Part shown: positions 1-64,000 of the stretch, one piece after another
Layout of the letters: each line of letters starts with the position of its first letter
Position numbering within the stretch: the first letter of the stretch is position 1
Source: Octopus sinensis
Lineage: Eukaryota
Direction: 5' to 3'
DNA: 64,000 nt
Assembly: GCF_006345805.1 (NCBI RefSeq)
Contig: NC_043020.1
Location: 16,988,001-17,052,000 of the forward strand
Position numbers and translations under genes: made by a program
The notes under the pieces: model-generated
What the model was told of the DNA's origin: nothing
Database searches by the model: none
What the model saw: the letters and a program-made list of their open reading frames with translations, nothing else

Positions 1-394
1 GTCGCTATGTTCTGAGTTCAAATTCCACTGAGGTTGACTTTGCCTTTAATCCTTTCAGGGTTGATAAAATAAGCACCAATCAAGTACTGGGGTCGAGGTA
101 ATTGACTAACCCCTCCCACAAATTTCGGGCTTTGTGCCAATAGTAAGAAGGATTATAATAATAATAATAATAATTATTATTATTATTATTAAGGCTGCGA
201 GCTGGCAGAATCATTAGCATGCCGGGTAAAATACTTAGTGGAAATTTGTGTCTTTACGGTCTGAGTTCGAATTCTGCCAAGGTCATTTTCGCCTTACTTC
301 CTTTCAGGATCAACAAGATATTGAGCGCTGGGGTTGATGTTATCAACTTATGCCCCCCCCTAACTTACTGGCCTTGTGCTAAAATTTGAAACCA

Positions 395-426
<32 letters not shown>

Positions 427-454
427 TATGTGTGTAATGGTTTGTCTTTTCCAG

Positions 455-666
455 GAACTACGTGGGTTCAAGAAATTGTTTACCTCATCCATTCAGATCT
501 TGACATTTCACAAGAAGAAGAGAAAAACATTGAACAACGATTCCATTTTCTTGAAAATATTTATCCTGGACTACCTGCCATAGCTGCTAAGGAATCACCT
601 CGACTGATCAAAAGCCATTTGCCCTTTCAACTCCTTCCAGAACAGCTTTCAACAGTCAAACCAAAA
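455..666 (+). CDS. Cytosolic sulfotransferase (SULT1/SULT4A1-like), first exon visible in the window (5' exons lie upstream)
   Basis: Acceptor tttgtcttttccag|G at 454/455; donor AAA|gtaaat at 666/667. Encodes (G)TTWVQEIVYLIHSDLD...ESPRLIKSHLPFQLLPEQLSTVKPK: end of the 5'-PSB loop (GTTW) and the catalytic His motif (KSHLP). Confidence 0.95.
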
Positions 667-703
667 GTAAATGTCCTTTTTCTGTTTTGTTATTATTATA
701 TCT

Positions 704-4322: not shown

Positions 4323-5677
4323 CACCATGTGTCCATTTGAGAAATCCTCTTAAGGTAAATAACACAGTATTCTATGTTCTTATACAACATCTATGTTAAG
4401 TTGGAGATAAAGATATATATATATCATCATCATTGTTTAGCGTCCCCTTTCTATGATGGCATGGGTTGGACGGTTTGGAGCTGGCTAGCAGGGAGCTGTC
4501 CAGATTGCAGCTGTCTGTTGAGGCATGGTTTCTATGGTTGGATGCCTTTTCTAATGCCAACCGCTTAAGAGAGTGTGTGTGTTTATGTAGCACTGACATG
4601 GGTACATTAATACAGTACCTCAAAGACATACATACATACCTGTATGTATGCAAGACAGCAGTGTTACTTAACTTGATGCATCTTATCATCGTTTAATGTC
4701 TGCTTTCCATGCTAGCATGGGTTGGACGGTTCAACTGGGGTCTGGGAAGCCAGAAGGCTGCACCAGGCTCCAATCTGATCTGGCAGAGTTGCTACAGCTG
4801 GATGCCCTTCCTGACGCCAACCACTCCGAGAGTGTAGTGGGTGCTTTTACGTGCCACCAGCACGAGGGCCAGTCAGGCGGTACTGTCAACAGCCACACTC
4901 AAATGGTGCTTTTTATGTGCCACCTGCACAGGAGCCAGTCCAGCAGCACTGGCAACGACCTCGCTCAGCAAACCGCCACATCTCCTGGCCCCTTGTCATT
5001 TCCTCAGTGAGGCCCAGCATTTGAAAATCCTTCCTCACTACTTCATCCCACGTCTTCCACGGTCTACCCCTTCATCAGGTTTCCTCCACAATTAGAGCTA
5101 GGCACTTCTTTATACAGCTGTACTGATCCATATATTTACATCATCATAATTGTCATTATTTAATGTCTGATTTTCATGCTGGCATGAGCTGCATGGTTTG
5201 TCTTGCCAGCTCTTGTTGAAGCATCCAACCCATGCCAGCATGGAAAACAGACATTAAATGATGATGATGATGATATATATCATATATATTCACACACATG
5301 AAGTAAACAACTTGGTACATCAAAACTTGCTGCATTTAGTTCCAAATGGGTTGTCTTTCTTTATATCAAGGACAACTTGCATTTTGTTCCTTAATATATA
5401 TATATTATTTCACTTGTTACACTCATTTCACTGTGGTCATGTTGGAGCACCACCTCTGCGTGTGTGTGTGTGTATACATACGTACATACATATATATATA
5501 ATTAGGGCTGATGCTAGTTATAACATAGAGAATTCTGCTATTTTCTGTAACTAAAATTCTTGTTGCATTTGTTTCTTGCAAACAGTTATAGTTCTTAAAA
5601 ATGCTGATAATTTACATATGGAGTAGTTAAAACTGCTGGTAATTATGATGGTGGTGATTATGGTATTTCTTCTTCAG

Positions 5678-5804
5678 ATAATTTATGTTGTTAGAAATCC
5701 AAAGGATATACTAATTTCATACTACAACTTCCTAAAAATGTTGACACCTTTGAAATTTGTTGGAACATTTGAAGAATTCTGCGATAGGTTTACCAAAGAT
5801 AAAG
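5678..5804 (+). CDS. Sulfotransferase internal exon (3'-phosphate-binding motif)
   Basis: Acceptor tttcttcttcag|ATA; donor AAAG|gtgagt; 127 bp; phase matches the previous exon. Encodes IIYVVRNPKDILISYYNFLKMLTPLKFVGTFEEFCDRFTKDK (RNPKD..S motif). Confidence 0.95.
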
Positions 5805-6152
5805 GTGAGTATAACTCAGTATCTAAACATGTTTTATTTTTATTGCCCATCACTGCATCAGATACATCAGAAAAACCCCCTAAGGTTTTTCAACATTAGT
5901 TAAAACAAAAATACAGTTGTATCCATCTATCTTCTACACCTGCTATTCTGGGAGGGGTTTGAGGTAGAGCCATCAGGTACCTCCCCTTTAAGGTCTTATC
6001 AGATGCCATTAGACTTGCTGGCTGGATTCCTAAACACAACTTACTGAGACATTGGATATCATCTTACCCTCTCACTCTTGGTCTACTTCTAAATTTCTTG
6101 CCAGTTGGCTCAGCTTAAAGAATTGGTCTTGCAGTTTTTTCTAGCAATATTT

Positions 6153-9953: not shown

Positions 9954-10146
9954 TATCTTTTTAGTATGTTTGCATATCAAGTGGTGAGCTGGCAGAATAG
10001 TTAGCATGCCGGACAAAACACTTAGCAACATTTCATCCGTCTTTACATTCTCAGTTCAAATTCTGCTGAGATCAACTCTGCCTCTCATCCTTTCAGGGTC
10101 GATAAATTAAGTACCAATAATAAAAGTTTTGTTTGTTATTTGGCAG

Positions 10147-10330
10147 GACCTTGCTGGAAATGTGCAGCGTATTGCCAAATTTCTTGGTAAGGAGTTAACA
10201 CCGGAACAACTGTTGACTATTTGCCATCGATGTCTGTTTAAGAATATGCGCCAGAATAAAAGTGTCAACTACTCGTGGTGGGACGGCTATGGGATCCGAG
10301 ATCAAACCCAGACAGAATTTCTTCGGCGAG
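10147..10330 (+). CDS. Sulfotransferase internal exon
   Basis: Acceptor tatttggcag|GAC; donor CGAG|gtgagt; 184 bp. Encodes DLAGNVQRIAKFLGKELTPEQLLTICHRCLFKNMRQNKSVNYSWWDGYGIRDQTQTEFLRR. Confidence 0.95.
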
Positions 10331-11988
10331 GTGAGTAGAAACATTGTCGTCTTCTCCATCATCATCACCACCATCACCACCACTACCACCATTACCACCA
10401 CCATCATCAATAACATCATCATCATCAACAACAACATAGTTTACATGTCCACACTCTTGCAACTTTTACCTATCCCATGCATCATCTTGTCTCTCATCCT
10501 TCACCTGTTTTCTGTTGTATCCTTGTTTTGTTACTCTCCACCTTTACTGTACTGCCAGTCATCACCTCCTCTTACCCAACTTGTATTTACCACTGACTCC
10601 TCCACTCTTGTTCACCATTCACTACAATCTGCACTCCATTGTTCCCATATACCCTGTCAAAGGCCTTTCTTTGGGTTGACAAATAAGACAGTAGCTTACT
10701 TTTATCTAAATACTTCTATAGCTGTCTCACTGGGCAAAGAACATCAAAAGTACTTCTCTCTGGCACAAAACTGAACTGCATTTCATTTGGTCTATTTCTC
10801 TTCCTAAATAAATAACCTAAAGTTCTCTCTGTAACTATCATGATCTGGTCGCTCTTGTGTCCCCTTGTAACAGTTGGCTATGATGCTACTGTGCCAGTCA
10901 TTGGGTATGGCACCTTCCTGTACAATCTAATTGACTCCTCTTTGACTCTATAGAAGATTCAGCTGTATCCTACCACATTTGATATTTGCTTTCTCTTTGT
11001 AGAATGGCTAATCACTCTGTTGGGTCCACACTGGGAAGACTCTCTTTCTCCTAAGCATTCTCCATGTGAATGTCTGTGTGCTTACATGTGGTTATTTCTA
11101 CATGTCTGCACCAATCAGTGTACCAGCTGAAAACCCCTTTTATAGGCCCTGACCTCTAGAACTATCCAAGAACAGCCCTTTGTGCAGCATAGCTAATTGT
11201 AATATAGGGGCATGTGCTGTAACAACACATCGCTGCATCCACCATGTGTTGGTGATTCTCTACTACTCCTGACAGATGATGGCTTTGCACCACTCAGCTG
11301 ACAACTCACCAACCTATAGGTCTGTTTGGGTAGTCGTTGCTGGTGAGGGTTTTATTGGGTTGGAGTACAAATCCTATATCGACCTCTTTTAGTCACCTTT
11401 CATGACATGCAGAGGAAATATTGGGTCTATTCTTTGGCGTGCTGGTTCCTCCACAGCACTAGAGCAACATAAAATGAAACGTGTTTTGCTCAAGAGCACA
11501 ATATGCCACCCAGTCCAGGAATCGAACCCACAATCTGGCGATCATGAGTGCAACATACTAACAACCAGACCATGTGCCTTCACTAGGAACAGAAATCTAT
11601 AATAATAAACACGAAAAAAATTCTGTCTGTCCGTCCATCCAGGTCCCCTGTATTTCAGTCTACATTTGCTCTCCAAAGACATATGATACTTTTTGAAACC
11701 AAGATGATCCTCGAATTGAAAATGCGCTTCATTAGGTTCTTGTACATCCAGCATTGGGATCAGATCTGGGCGAGGATTTGTTATATGCTAACAATTGAAA
11801 ATTCAAATTTTAAAAGAACCCCAAAAATTTGTGAACTTACAAGTTTTTCATTTAAACTAAATTTAAAGTAATATCATTTATTGGTAGGGTACCAATAAAT
11901 GATATTGCTCTCTTTAGTTCTGGGCCACAAGCCCAATTAGTCCTCTACAGAAGCTAGCTTAAAAGTCCACCCAGGGTGCAGCTTTTAA

Positions 11989-22707: not shown

Positions 22708-23978
22708 TTAGGATGTTTGGAAAGTAACTGCGTTTTTTTCACCAATATAAAATATGAATCAACCAATCATGTCAGAGCCAAGTTTGAATGAGTGGAAACT
22801 GTCTAGAAATAGTATATCGTCTCTTCTATCCAGCAGCGTGTCATTCATAGTTATTTTGGTAATTAACTCCATGGAGGATGAGAACTTTATGAAACCACAT
22901 ATTTGCCATTGCTTACTGTATGAGCTTCAAAAGAAAAGTACTGCTAAAGAAGCTATGAAAAATATTTTTGAAGTGTATCTGGATGCAGTGACAACTCGTA
23001 CATGTTGACTGTGATTTAAAAGGTTTAAATATGGTGATTGTAACATATTTGACAAGCCTCGCTCTAGAAGACAACCCACTCTGAAGGATGACCTTTTGAA
23101 TGAGACTACTGTATCAGATCCACATCAAAGAACCAGAGATTTGGCACAAAAATTTGATGTGTAATGTTAAACTATCCATGAGCATTTCAAGCAAATTGGG
23201 AAAACATGCAGAGGGAATTTAGGTTCTACATGAGCTTACACTTGAGAGCTGAACACGACATTCCACCATCTGCAGTAGTCCTCTAACCAGGAATAACAAC
23301 CTGTCATTTTTGCAGTGCATTGTTACAGGTGATGAAAAATGAGTTCTACATCACAACAGAAAACAAAAAAAAGAACAATGATTATTATGTAATGAGAAGG
23401 CAGTACCAACACCAAAACCAAAACCAGAACTCCATCCACAAACATCTTTGATCTGTGTTTGGTGGAACATAAAAGGTATCATCCATTACAAGCTACTGGA
23501 ACATGGAAGGACCATCAATGCAGATGTCTGTTGCCAACAACTTGATCATGTAAATGAAAAATTAAGTTGAAAATGGCCAGCTTTGGAAAACAGTAAAGGT
23601 GTTATTCTCCAACATGGACACACTCTTCAAAGCAAACCCAAGAAAAAATAAGATCATTAAGATGGGAAGTTCTACATCCTCCATACTCACCTGACTTAGC
23701 ACCTATGGATTTCCATCTGTTCCAATCACAAGAACATTTTATAAGTGGCAAAACATTCAGAAACAGAGAGGAAGTTGAAAACAGTCTTTGAGACTTTTTT
23801 TTCAGGAAAAGAAATAGGTTTCTTTGAACGTGACATGAAAATGTTACTTTTCCATTGGGCTGCAGTTGTTAAAAACATTGGTGATTACATTCTTAATTAA
23901 GACTATTTAAATAAACATAGTCTACATTTATTTTTATATCCTTTCTGGTAAAATGCAATTACTTGCCCAGCACCCTAA
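22708..23978 (+). mobile_element. Full-length but decayed mariner transposon (transposase pseudogene about 22871-23900)
   Basis: TA|ttaggatgtttggaaagtaactgcg...tgcaattacttgcccagcaccctaa|TA. Motifs VLHELT, IVTGDEK, CVWWNIKGII and HPPYSPDLAPMDFHLF; several stops and frameshifts. Confidence 0.92.
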
Positions 23979-32769: not shown

Positions 32770-34171
32770 CAATGGACCCAATATTTTTCTTTTAATTAAA
32801 TTTTATTCAGACTACCACTATTTCTTAGCTACATTAACAATGCTATCAGGTGAATGAAGAATTACTATTTCTCACAAATTTTCACAAAAAAAAAAAGAAA
32901 TACAGCTTACAGAATATATCATGAATTTTAAAAATTACAAAAATACAGAATTACAGCTCTTCATGGCAGTGAATGCAGACAACATTGGAATGTTCTTGGC
33001 AAACATGGATATTACAATTTTTGCATGTAGTATGAGTTTTCCTGATCTATTTTGGGGCCACGCAAAGAACATCTTCCTTTTTGCTTTGGCTGAGGAATCT
33101 CAAATGAGGTTGAAGATCATCTTCTTTTCTTGTTTGGTTGAGAAATGTTAGCAGAATTAGAAGATTGTTTGTCATGTTCTTGTTTAGCATTAACTCCTTT
33201 CCTAACTGAATAAGTTACTGTTTTCTTTTATCCTTGAAACTTTGCAAGTGAAGCTGTTTAGCAACAATGAAAGCATTCACAGTTAGAGCAGCGGACTTGC
33301 GGTCAAGGGATAGCGGGTTCGAATCTCAGACTGGGCATGTGTGTTTATGAGCAAAACACCTAAGCTCCACGTGGATCCAGCAGAAGGCAATGGCGAAATT
33401 TTGCTGATTCTTTCACCACAACCAATCATGCTGTGGAATATAACCATAGGCCATCTTTGAGTCATTCTTTTGCAAGTGTATGTCCTTGCCATCTTATCTA
33501 TGGTTTCTACTCCTCCTTTTGTTTTGTTGTAACATGCAATAACTTCAGGTTTATTTTCAGCACTTTTTTTAATCAATTGAAGGCTGAGAGTGCATTGTTC
33601 TCATAAGTGTGTCTACATAATTTTTCCTAGAACAATAATACAGGATTATAGAATCCTTTAGAAATCAAAAGATTGTGCTGTTGATTTCTCTTTCTTTTTC
33701 ATTTATGAAAGCACTTGTAAGTTCAACTCTGTTCTTTCTAATTGTTCCAACTGAAGTAGTTTTCTTTCCAAGCAGCTTTTGGGTCAATCCTAGACTTGTA
33801 AAAAAATTATCACAAGTTATAATGCAACCAATATTTTCAAGTTCTTTTACTAGGTCTTCAACAACTCTTGAAACTTGATTCATCTCTCCCGTTTACTGGG
33901 TCTTTTCCAGTGTCGATTTGCATTTTCCAGGCATAAAATGTTTCACGGTTGCATATTTCCCTGGCTTTGAAGGAATATATACCTGGAATGAACAGCACCC
34001 TCTGAATGAAACTAATTGTTCATAAACTGTCATGCATGCCCATGGAACATATCCATCTTGCAAATTCTGATCCCACATTTCAAATACTTCTCTTATGGGC
34101 TCCAATTTATCATCACTTCTGTTTTTTCTTCTTGCGCTAGCATCATCAAAGCACAATACTTGTAAAATTTG
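32770..34171 (-). pseudogene. piggyBac (PGBD4-like) transposase relic
   Basis: Minus-strand ORFs contain TVYEQLVSFRGCCSFQVYIPSKPGKY, ITCDNFFTSLGL...GTIRKNR and YNKTKGGVETIDKM...RWPMVIF, the three catalytic-Asp regions of piggyBac. Frameshifted and interrupted by a SINE. Confidence 0.9.
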
Positions 34172-34860
34172 TTGGACTGAACACTTTATTAGAATGAAGG
34201 ATAGCAGGATCCCAAAGCAGATGCTATATGGGGAACTTGAGAATGGAAAGAGACCCCGGCAGAAACCAAGGCTGTAATTTAACCCTTTAGTGTTTAAACT
34301 GGCCATATCCAGCTCAAATATTCTACATGTTTTATATTCAAACTGGCCATATCTAGCCTCTCACACCTAACCTACATTGATATTCTAAAAATAAACTATC
34401 ACATCATTGAAACCTCAAAGCTATAAGATAATGCATGATTAATTCAAAACAATTTAAATAAAAAATATATTACATTTAACAGAGTAATCTGAACACTAAA
34501 GGGTTAAGGACTGTGTCAAGTCCTCATTAAAGGCCTGTGATATGCAGGAGACTGACTAGGAGAGCAATGCCTGTCATCACCACAGATGGAGGAAGCAGGT
34601 TAAGGAGAGGGTCGACACCTTTGAAAGAGCGCGTATTCTTCAAGGAATAACTTAAGCGTGCTGCTCGAAAGTGCACTGCTGTTGTAGTGAATGGGGAGAG
34701 CTTGATCTGCAATGTTTGCAGTCGTGTATCCTTGTCAAGAGCAGGGCTCATTAGCCACCAATGGAGCCGCAAATGCAAAAGATAAGTTAGTCCTAGAGCA
34801 CACAATGTTCCTGAAGGTCAGCAATGGTCTTCCTCAACTAGAGTAGACGGCCATCATGTA
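34172..34860 (+). mobile_element. RTE(BovB-like) LINE 3' end
   Basis: HFIRMKDSRIPKQMLYGELENGKRPRQKPRL*FKDCVKSSLK and a terminal CNVCSRVSLSRAGLISH zinc-finger-like motif. It truncates the piggyBac relic. Confidence 0.85.
34283..34503. mobile_element. Second piggyBac-type MITE family
   Basis: TTAA|ccctttagtgtt...aacactaaaggg|TTAA; a partial copy end lies at about 29550-29660. Confidence 0.88.
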
Positions 34861-63655: not shown

Positions 63656-63707
<52 letters not shown>

Positions 63708-63735
63708 TGGAGTTGAACGAAGATGTTATTAAAAT

Positions 63736-63830
63736 TCTTTTACTTTCGACATATGTTTCGAAGACAACATTGGTTTTATTCTAAAGGAATAAATGATGTA
63801 AAATGTAATCTTCTCATCAGGAAAGAAAGA
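63736..63830 (-). ncRNA. Type I hammerhead ribozyme motif, fully canonical core
   Basis: Minus strand reads ucuuu-cuuuc CUGAUGA gaaga..acauu..uuuauuc-cuuua-gaauaaa..aaugu..ucuuc GAAA cauaug UC gaaag-ua-aaaga. Predicted GUC cleavage between 63748 and 63747. Confidence 0.85.
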
Positions 63831-64000
63831 GAGCCTATTTCAACAACAAGACATTATAGCAATTACGATGACTGCCTAAATGATAAACAGAACGTTATTA
63901 AGTATTTAAAAAACCGTTAGTAGATTTGACGTCAAAGGCAGATACTAGGAAGAAATAATAAGTAGAGAACTAATAAAGAGGAATACATTGGTTGAAAAAA

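What the first reader, a model, noticed from the sequence alone, without database searches (positions are those of the whole stretch)
63736..63830. Best ribozyme candidate: intact canonical hammerhead on the minus strand at the window edge
All core nucleotides are present (CUGAUGA, GAAA, GUC). Stem I (5 bp plus extension) and the base of stem II (5 bp) are perfectly paired, stem II extends through two more helices, and stem III is the palindrome CAUAUG typical of dimer-cleaving PLE hammerheads. On its strand it runs into (TA)n about 40 nt downstream. Inference: the 3' pseudo-LTR of a young Penelope-like element whose body may lie beyond 64000.
Basis: partly seen in the sequence, partly recalled or inferred. 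Interest (0 to 1): 0.75.

Follow-up and report, generated by a model that had tools for sequence, protein, structure and literature searches.

The report
Hammerhead in linker-less Hydra-like Penelope fragment
This is an intact hammerhead motif, predicted to self-cut, at the tail of a short non-coding fragment of a Penelope-type jumping gene with hundreds of copies; the kind is known, but this lineage lacks the zinc-binding linker proposed to aim such elements at TA repeats and its copies still end on TA repeats.

Summary
The hammerhead is real: the only descriptor hit in 64 kb, none in 100 shuffles, and stems I and II covary across sister families. It lies in the 3' pseudo-LTR of a Penelope-like retrotransposon close to the Hydra clade; its 3' half has 625 exact genomic matches. 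The body is not beyond 64000: this copy is a ~346-bp 5'-truncated end stopping 37 nt past the edge, between TA runs, ~5% diverged from its closest copies, so not young. Full-length pLTR-ORF-pLTR copies and intact sister ORFs lie elsewhere; the modelled protein matches telomerase RT best. A hammerhead here is expected (PMC8557442). Two extras: (1) the whole lineage lacks the CxCX5C linker seen in 17 of 17 spanning homologues (poly-Asn in this family), yet 71 of 79 copy ends abut TA runs; (2) copies end at two sites, +56 or +209 nt after the cut site, and back-to-back insertions pair them 43 mixed, 0 alike. The one-sided tail is known qualitatively, and this scan noted the same pairing for a retrozyme elsewhere in this genome. 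Cleavage is untested; 70 of 77 arms read through the site.

The parts
63692..64000 (-). 5'-truncated 3' end of the Penelope-like element (pLTR only, no coding sequence); continues 37 nt beyond the window to G000:C24:17052037; about 346 bp in all, with a 13-nt deletion relative to other copies
63743..63825 (-). type I hammerhead: stem I, CUGAUGA, long stem II (54 nt between the core boxes), GAAA, palindromic stem III, GUC
63747..63748 (-). predicted self-cleavage site, 3' of C17 (63748)
   Evidence: and the standard hammerhead numbering; not tested
63749..63756 (-). 8-nt palindrome forming a 2-bp stem III as a monomer or an 8-bp duplex between two copies; sister families keep a self-complementary version, some with G-U pairs
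63706..63718 (-). sequence box conserved across sister families just before 3' end A; candidate signal for the start of reverse transcription (inferred)
63692..63697 (-). 3' end A (+54 to +56 nt after C17), the commoner of the two preferred ends; its last letters merge with the TA run
63658..63705 (.). (TA)n tract at the element's 3' end, likely the insertion target

Best explanation
The motif is a canonical type I hammerhead, predicted to self-cleave as a dimer or with protein help, in the 3' pseudo-LTR of a non-coding, 5'-truncated copy of a Penelope-like retrotransposon that likely descends from the Hydra clade but lacks its CxCX5C linker. Shown: element anatomy (partial pLTR with hammerhead, 5' UTR, one ORF with telomerase-like RT and C-terminal GIY-YIG endonuclease, pLTR with hammerhead, TA run), two preferred 3' ends (+56 and +209), TA-bordered ends, and mixed pairing of the two ends in back-to-back insertions. 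Inferred mechanism: the protein nicks both strands of a (TA)n tract; the two nicks prime reverse transcription inside the RNA, one at site A and one at site B, on RNA from one source element; one-sided completion leaves a single truncated arm such as this copy, two-sided completion a head-to-head pair. The template mostly has an uncut or re-joined hammerhead, so the ribozyme likely acts in processing tandem transcripts and not in making the cDNA end. This copy has no ORF, upstream pLTR or neighbouring hammerhead and is probably inert.
For: Copies extend upstream by variable lengths into an RT/GIY-YIG frame and downstream into the 5' UTR. Full-length copy L034. Motifs RIRW, DKT, MGS.DSAQ, GLYRDD, IY..YIG, CxxC..E, CxH match the Hydra description and alignment. 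AlphaFold model of an intact sister ORF, pLDDT 83.9, best Foldseek hits telomerase RT, E 3e-8. Covariation on 14 rows: 93.2% of 294 cells paired, 6 of 21 pairs with two-sided changes, slid controls 32-53%. 79 of 89 scored ends fall at A (47) or B (32); 71 of these 79 have a TA run of 10 nt or more, background 5%. 61 head-to-head pairs in 117 insertions: 43 A+B, 0 A+A, 0 B+B, 18 with an undefined end (p 2e-13 against 50:50); young sister family 5 of 5 A+B. Arms of one insertion differ less (0.044) than arms of different insertions (0.080), 19 pairs, p 8e-6. 70 of 77 arms chosen on a pattern downstream of the site run through C17. Two internal RT starts, both-strand extension and a dispensable, protein-assisted hammerhead were shown in vitro for another Penelope element (PMC11167929).
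Against: No cleavage, expression or priming was measured. Pfam gives no RT hit and GIY-YIG only below its cut-off (20.3 vs 22.6 bits); a profile search of PDB sequences found nothing. The 14 covariation rows are related, which inflates the shuffle control; two of its five measures were not above shuffles. Only 20 of 59 single arms have a TA run on the 5' side as well, so part of the 3' TA could be added or expanded after insertion. In vitro the other element showed no difference in start site between strands (PMC11167929), which does not by itself predict strict mixed pairing. Similar arms could also come from gene conversion. The tree has no outgroup and no published Hydra sequence.
Confidence: 0.85

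Rival explanations
1. Same element, but the hammerhead cuts tandem transcripts into unit-length RNAs that are re-joined into circles, and reverse transcription round the circle makes the pLTR-ORF-pLTR partial tandems and the B-ended arms.
For: B-ended arms reach far into the ORF 3' end (45 of 71 start upstream of C17; some more than 1 kb). 5' and 3' pLTRs of single insertions are nearly identical (4/186, 1/264, 2/522 differences), and in L034 both share a variant seen in no other listed copy. The fold is kept across families.
Against: A linear, uncut read-through RNA from a tandem or B-ended master gives the same DNA products. The youngest intact sister family carries a U4C core (26 of 30 listed rows), a change that lowers activity in vitro (PMC3088659).
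Confidence: 0.35
2. The (TA)n next to the ends is added by the reverse transcriptase or grows afterwards and is not a chosen target, so the missing linker says nothing about targeting.
For: Both end sites finish in TA-like letters; 51 of 59 single arms have TA at the 3' side but only 20 of 59 at the 5' side.
Against: 20 of 59 is still far above the 5% background; the window copy has TA on both sides; published Hydra families are listed with a (TA)n insertion preference.
Confidence: 0.2
3. The repeat is a non-autonomous retrozyme or SINE-like unit of fixed length that only borrows a Penelope enzyme.
For: The window copy is short and non-coding; retrozymes derived from pLTRs are described (bioRxiv 10.64898/2026.07.22.740005, passages).
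Against: 5' ends vary from +13 to beyond -1400 and run into the ORF; no tandem array of short units; the one near-identical tandem (L002/L003) duplicates its flank too.
Confidence: 0.03
4. One reading: 3' pLTR of a young element whose body lies just beyond 64000.
For: Intact core and TA-bordered end.
Against: Homology stops at 64037; no RT match in the next 18 kb; 5.3% divergence.
Confidence: 0.01
5. The absence of A+A and B+B pairs is an artefact of palindrome loss or assembly.
For: Like-ended pairs would be inverted repeats.
Against: A+B pairs with inverted overlaps of 140-183 nt are present and assembled.
Confidence: 0.05

Closest known systems
Hydra clade of Penelope-like elements, incl. 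Hydra-1_Obim (Craig et al. 2021, PMC8557442; seen: passages, section 11 whole, supplement parts 2 and 58 and search hits)
   Same: One ORF with RT and C-terminal GIY-YIG, DKT, GLYRDD, no CCHH, CxxC and CxH near the end, canonical hammerhead in the pLTR, (TA)n borders, partial tandem and inverted copies.
   Different: No CxCX5C linker; RWL for RWK; stem II region of 54 nt against 10-25 nt in the listed Hydra hammerheads; tail of about 153 nt against 30-40; unit about 3.2 kb; Hydra-1_Obim has the linker and an unrelated hammerhead sequence.
Poseidon element PAc of Anolis (Frangieh et al. 2024, PMC11167929; seen: parts 1-2 of 4, whole main text)
   Same: Two internal RT start sites downstream of the hammerhead define the optional tail; uncut RNA is the template; AT-rich targets without a linker knuckle.
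   Different: Other clade; starts are adjacent and inside the ORF, here 153 nt apart in the 5' UTR; no strand-to-site rule reported.
Penelope elements of Adineta vaga (PMC3846280; seen: passages)
   Same: Head-to-head inverted pLTRs with the tail on one of them; asparagine-rich inserts between RT and endonuclease.
   Different: Described from single copies without counts; explained there by self-priming on an antisense template; Penelope clade.
Metazoan PLE hammerheads (Cervera and de la Pena 2014, PMC4209133; seen: part 1 of 4)
   Same: Type I motif in pLTRs, weak palindromic stem III, proposed dimer activity, low activity in vitro.
   Different: Much longer, multi-helix stem II here.

Membership tests
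Type I hammerhead ribozyme | Core CUGANGA, GAAA, NUH with three stems, stem I open | tested here: met
Type I hammerhead ribozyme | Covarying stems in homologues | tested here: met
   stems I and II have two-sided changes; stem III pairs never vary
Type I hammerhead ribozyme | Rfam model match at gathering score | tested here: not met
   0 matches in the window; the long stem II is the likely cause (inference)
Type I hammerhead ribozyme | Self-cleavage | not testable with these tools
   no assay; only contigs available
Penelope-like element (EN+) | Telomerase-like RT | tested here: met
   on intact sister ORF L081, 75% identical to the family RT
Penelope-like element (EN+) | GIY-YIG endonuclease in the same ORF | tested here: met
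   Pfam PF01541 E 7e-4, below cut-off; motifs aligned; continuous frame in sister copies
Penelope-like element (EN+) | pLTR partial tandems, inverted 5' copies, optional tail | tested here: met
Hydra clade | C-terminal EN without CCHH, with CxxC and CxH near the conserved E and N | tested here: met
Hydra clade | DKT motif and divergent RT4 | tested here: met
Hydra clade | RWK motif | tested here: inconclusive
   RIRWL: RW kept, K replaced
Hydra clade | CxCX5C linker | tested here: not met
   absent in 8 of 8 long frames and in two linker-spanning frames; so filed as Hydra-derived variant, not as a plain member
Hydra clade | Canonical hammerhead and (TA)n borders | tested here: met
Hydra clade | Placement among published Hydra RTs in a rooted tree | tested here: inconclusive
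   one clade (100/100) beside linker-bearing P0001, but no outgroup and no published Hydra sequence among the 25 rows
Metazoan non-LTR retrozyme | Short non-coding unit in tandem arrays, no ORF in the family | tested here: not met

The most novel reading that the evidence does not exclude
An abundant, recently active lineage of Hydra-like elements lost the linker zinc knuckle once, replaced it with a non-cysteine segment and an expandable Asn/Ser spacer, and kept full (TA)n targeting, which would show that the knuckle is not the targeting device; and its protein works as an asymmetric dimer in which the two target strands are obligately primed at two different RNA sites 153 nt apart, which would explain the one-sided tail of all Penelope-like insertions.
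Probability: 0.45. Interest if true: 0.6.

Novelty: new variant of a known kind. Interest (0 to 1): 0.38.

Why it matters
The hammerhead itself is expected in this kind of element. The family around it gives natural tests of two open points in Penelope biology: whether the linker zinc knuckle aims insertions at microsatellites (proposed in PMC8557442), and how the inverted pLTR with a one-sided tail arises. Near-identical intact sister copies (2 differences in 1380 nt) make both testable in vitro, and the young family with a U4C core is a natural test of whether cleavage matters for transposition.

Tried and rejected
Rfam at gathering score: no match. Body beyond the edge: none. One search used a structure that I mis-registered by one column; discarded and redone. 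One search used a reference that included a TA run; discarded and redone. Single-sequence AlphaFold failed (pLDDT 33.8); redone with an alignment. Pfam on full ORFs and the profile search of PDB sequences were blank. Expression: no RNA holder listed; contigs of 4 of the 24 runs were laid and hold the repeat but cannot show ends, strand or level, so they count neither way. Pile-up of 5' ends at the cut site: 2 of 77 arms start at +2 and 5 of 77 within -3..+4, judged by eye not above the local density; no formal test. Strict core count: 18 of 44 rows passed a strict pattern; of the 26 others about 8 differ only by a G-U pair in stem I and 4 are inversion junctions, so no selection claim is made. 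An earlier count said 49 of 71 B arms; the correct count is 45 of 71. Literature searches found no paper on a linker-less Hydra lineage or on counted end pairing; Repbase, Dfam, subscription journals and the figures of the supplement were not seen, so the family may be catalogued there. Earlier scan notes had nothing for this sequence, this place or the linker loss.

Full report
Observation. The minus strand at 63825-63743 holds all parts of a type I hammerhead: a 5-bp stem I, CUGAUGA, a long stem II with a 5-bp perfect base, GAAA, the palindrome ACAUAUGU and GUC, with the predicted cut at 63748/63747. A descriptor scan of both strands found only this motif in 64 kb and none in 100 shuffled windows. 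Rfam does not report it. As a monomer it is not unusually stable (z -0.59) and the core is paired away in the minimum-energy fold; the active monomer fold has a computed probability near 0.001, while two copies of the palindrome form an 8-bp duplex of -7.0 kcal/mol. That fits the dimer-type hammerheads of Penelope-like elements (PMC4209133, part 1 of 4).

It is a repeat. The last 291 bases gave 2783 first-look candidates in the own genome, 40 scored, 88-91% identical over the full query. A 22-nt pattern over the 3' half of the motif has 625 exact matches against 0 for the reversed control; close subfamilies share it. The window is G000:C24:16988001-17052000. The host is likely an octopus: a 60% identical database protein is named from Octopus bimaculoides and earlier notes call the genome so.

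This copy. Homology covers window 63692 to 64037, about 346 bp, with TA runs on both sides; the family RT finds nothing in the window or the next 18 kb. It starts 303 nt upstream of C17, downstream of the ORF's stop codon, so it is non-coding. It differs by 5.3% substitutions from the 28 best copies, which differ by 5.5% among themselves.

The element. Other copies extend upstream by variable lengths into a reading frame and some extend downstream. L034 shows the full anatomy: partial pLTR with hammerhead, 5' UTR, ORF (frameshifted in this copy), pLTR with hammerhead, TA run. A protein search scored 86 of 14370 candidates; the closest matches (80% identity or more) had no intact full frame, but sister families at 66-76% have open frames of 778-923 aa. 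Two sister copies differ at 2 of 1380 nt. An AlphaFold model of sister ORF L081 with a 28-row alignment (pLDDT 83.9) matches telomerase RT best (E 3e-8). The C-terminal part scores as GIY-YIG just under Pfam's cut-off; full ORFs get no Pfam hit. The motifs agree with the Hydra clade of Craig et al. 2021 (PMC8557442, section 11; supplement alignment), where hammerheads and (TA)n insertion are the rule. The one octopus Hydra family listed there has another hammerhead sequence and keeps the linker.

Covariation. On 14 rows chosen from 93 motif rows in 17 clusters (window, one family copy and 12 from subfamilies and sister families), 93.2% of 294 cells pair, 6 of 21 pairs have two-sided changes, and slid controls give 32-53%. 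Three of five measures exceed all 500 shuffles, two do not; the rows are related, so this is support and not a probability. Stem III stays self-complementary in all variants folded.

First extra: no linker knuckle. Of 26 database homologues, 17 reach through the linker and all 17 have CxC..C (15 by pattern, 2 read from the alignment); so do the 9 Hydra-clade rows of the published alignment. None of 8 long frames of this lineage has it, nor two further linker-spanning frames. In the window's family the place holds an (AAT)n tract of 196-254 nt in 4 uninterrupted copies, read as poly-asparagine; sister families have a short or a long Asn/Ser-rich spacer. The four lineage proteins form one branch (100/100) beside a linker-bearing homologue, consistent with one loss, in a 25-row tree without outgroup (4 short proteins left out). 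Yet 71 of 79 ends at the two preferred sites have a TA run of 10 nt or more, against 5% background (57 insertions), and in the young sister family 27 of 27 terminal ends do (5 further matches are internal 5' UTRs). Craig et al. tie the linker to (TA)n targeting. Against over-reading: only 20 of 59 single arms have TA on the 5' side too, and a Poseidon element without linker also prefers AT-rich DNA. Asparagine-rich inserts in Penelope ORFs are already described (PMC3846280).

Second extra: end pairing. Copies end at +54/56 (A) or about +209 (B) after C17 (47, 32 and 10 other of 89). In 117 insertions (13 duplicate loci dropped) there are 61 head-to-head pairs: 43 A+B, 0 A+A, 0 B+B, 18 with an undefined end (p 2e-13 against 50:50); the sister family adds 5 of 5 A+B. 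Overlapping arms of one insertion are closer than arms of different insertions (19 of 25 pairs had enough overlap; 0.044 against 0.080). The count in an autonomous family and the 153-nt spacing are what this adds.

How it likely works. Shown: anatomy, ends, borders, pairing. Inferred: the protein nicks both strands of a TA tract and primes reverse transcription at A from one strand and B from the other on RNA of one source; failure on one side leaves a single arm like this one. 70 of 77 arms chosen on a pattern downstream of the site run through C17, so the template is mostly uncut or re-joined; DNA alone cannot separate a linear tandem RNA from a circle. The fold is conserved, but the youngest family has U4C (26 of 30 rows), which lowers activity in vitro (PMC3088659, passages). 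Expression could not be judged.

Verdict. A real hammerhead in an ordinary, probably inert Penelope-like fragment; known kind, new variant by the loss of the linker, the long stem II and the long tail. Interest 0.38.

Noticed in passing
L080, L081, L083 (G000:C1:42.76 Mb, C1:79.88 Mb, C20:16.43 Mb): Young sister family with intact 778-aa ORF (2-6 differences in 1380 nt) whose hammerhead has U4C, in many copies with a GUA cut triplet.
   Followed up: partly
L019:553-882, L024, L028 (oriented frames): Fragments of another retroelement's C-terminal endonuclease sit inside the (AAT)n linker of three copies; they resemble Dong/R4-type elements that target (TAA)n (recalled; Pfam gave no hit).
   Followed up: partly
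L048:+658, L053:-2572, L069:-6561, L125:+1214, L031:-9640, L046:-844, L069:-7451: Other hammerhead-like motifs of unrelated sequence, several with a long stem II and palindromic stem III, in fetched flanks; likely other Penelope-like families.
   Followed up: no
L089, L103 and related copies: Sister families with open frames of about 900 aa, a 150-aa low-complexity linker and 3' UTRs of 550-700 nt, but the same hammerhead and downstream box.
   Followed up: partly
window 63657-63000 and L001:1860-3290: Dense SINE-like repeats and tandem 63-65 nt units on both sides of the element; one unit has a hammerhead-like look but CAGA in place of CUGA.
   Followed up: no
window 364-702, 5627-5896, 10111-10335 (+): Three exons of a sulfotransferase (PF00685) gene.
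   Followed up: no
window 33286-34360 (-) and 22751-23005 (+): Broken piggyBac-type transposase pieces (PF13843) and a Mos1-type HTH fragment (PF17906).
   Followed up: no
family-wide: 5' truncation points cluster at -76 to -71 (8 of 77), the start of the hammerhead core, and at -12 to +13 (16 of 77), with none at -28 to -13; possible RT pausing at the fold; not tested.
   Followed up: no
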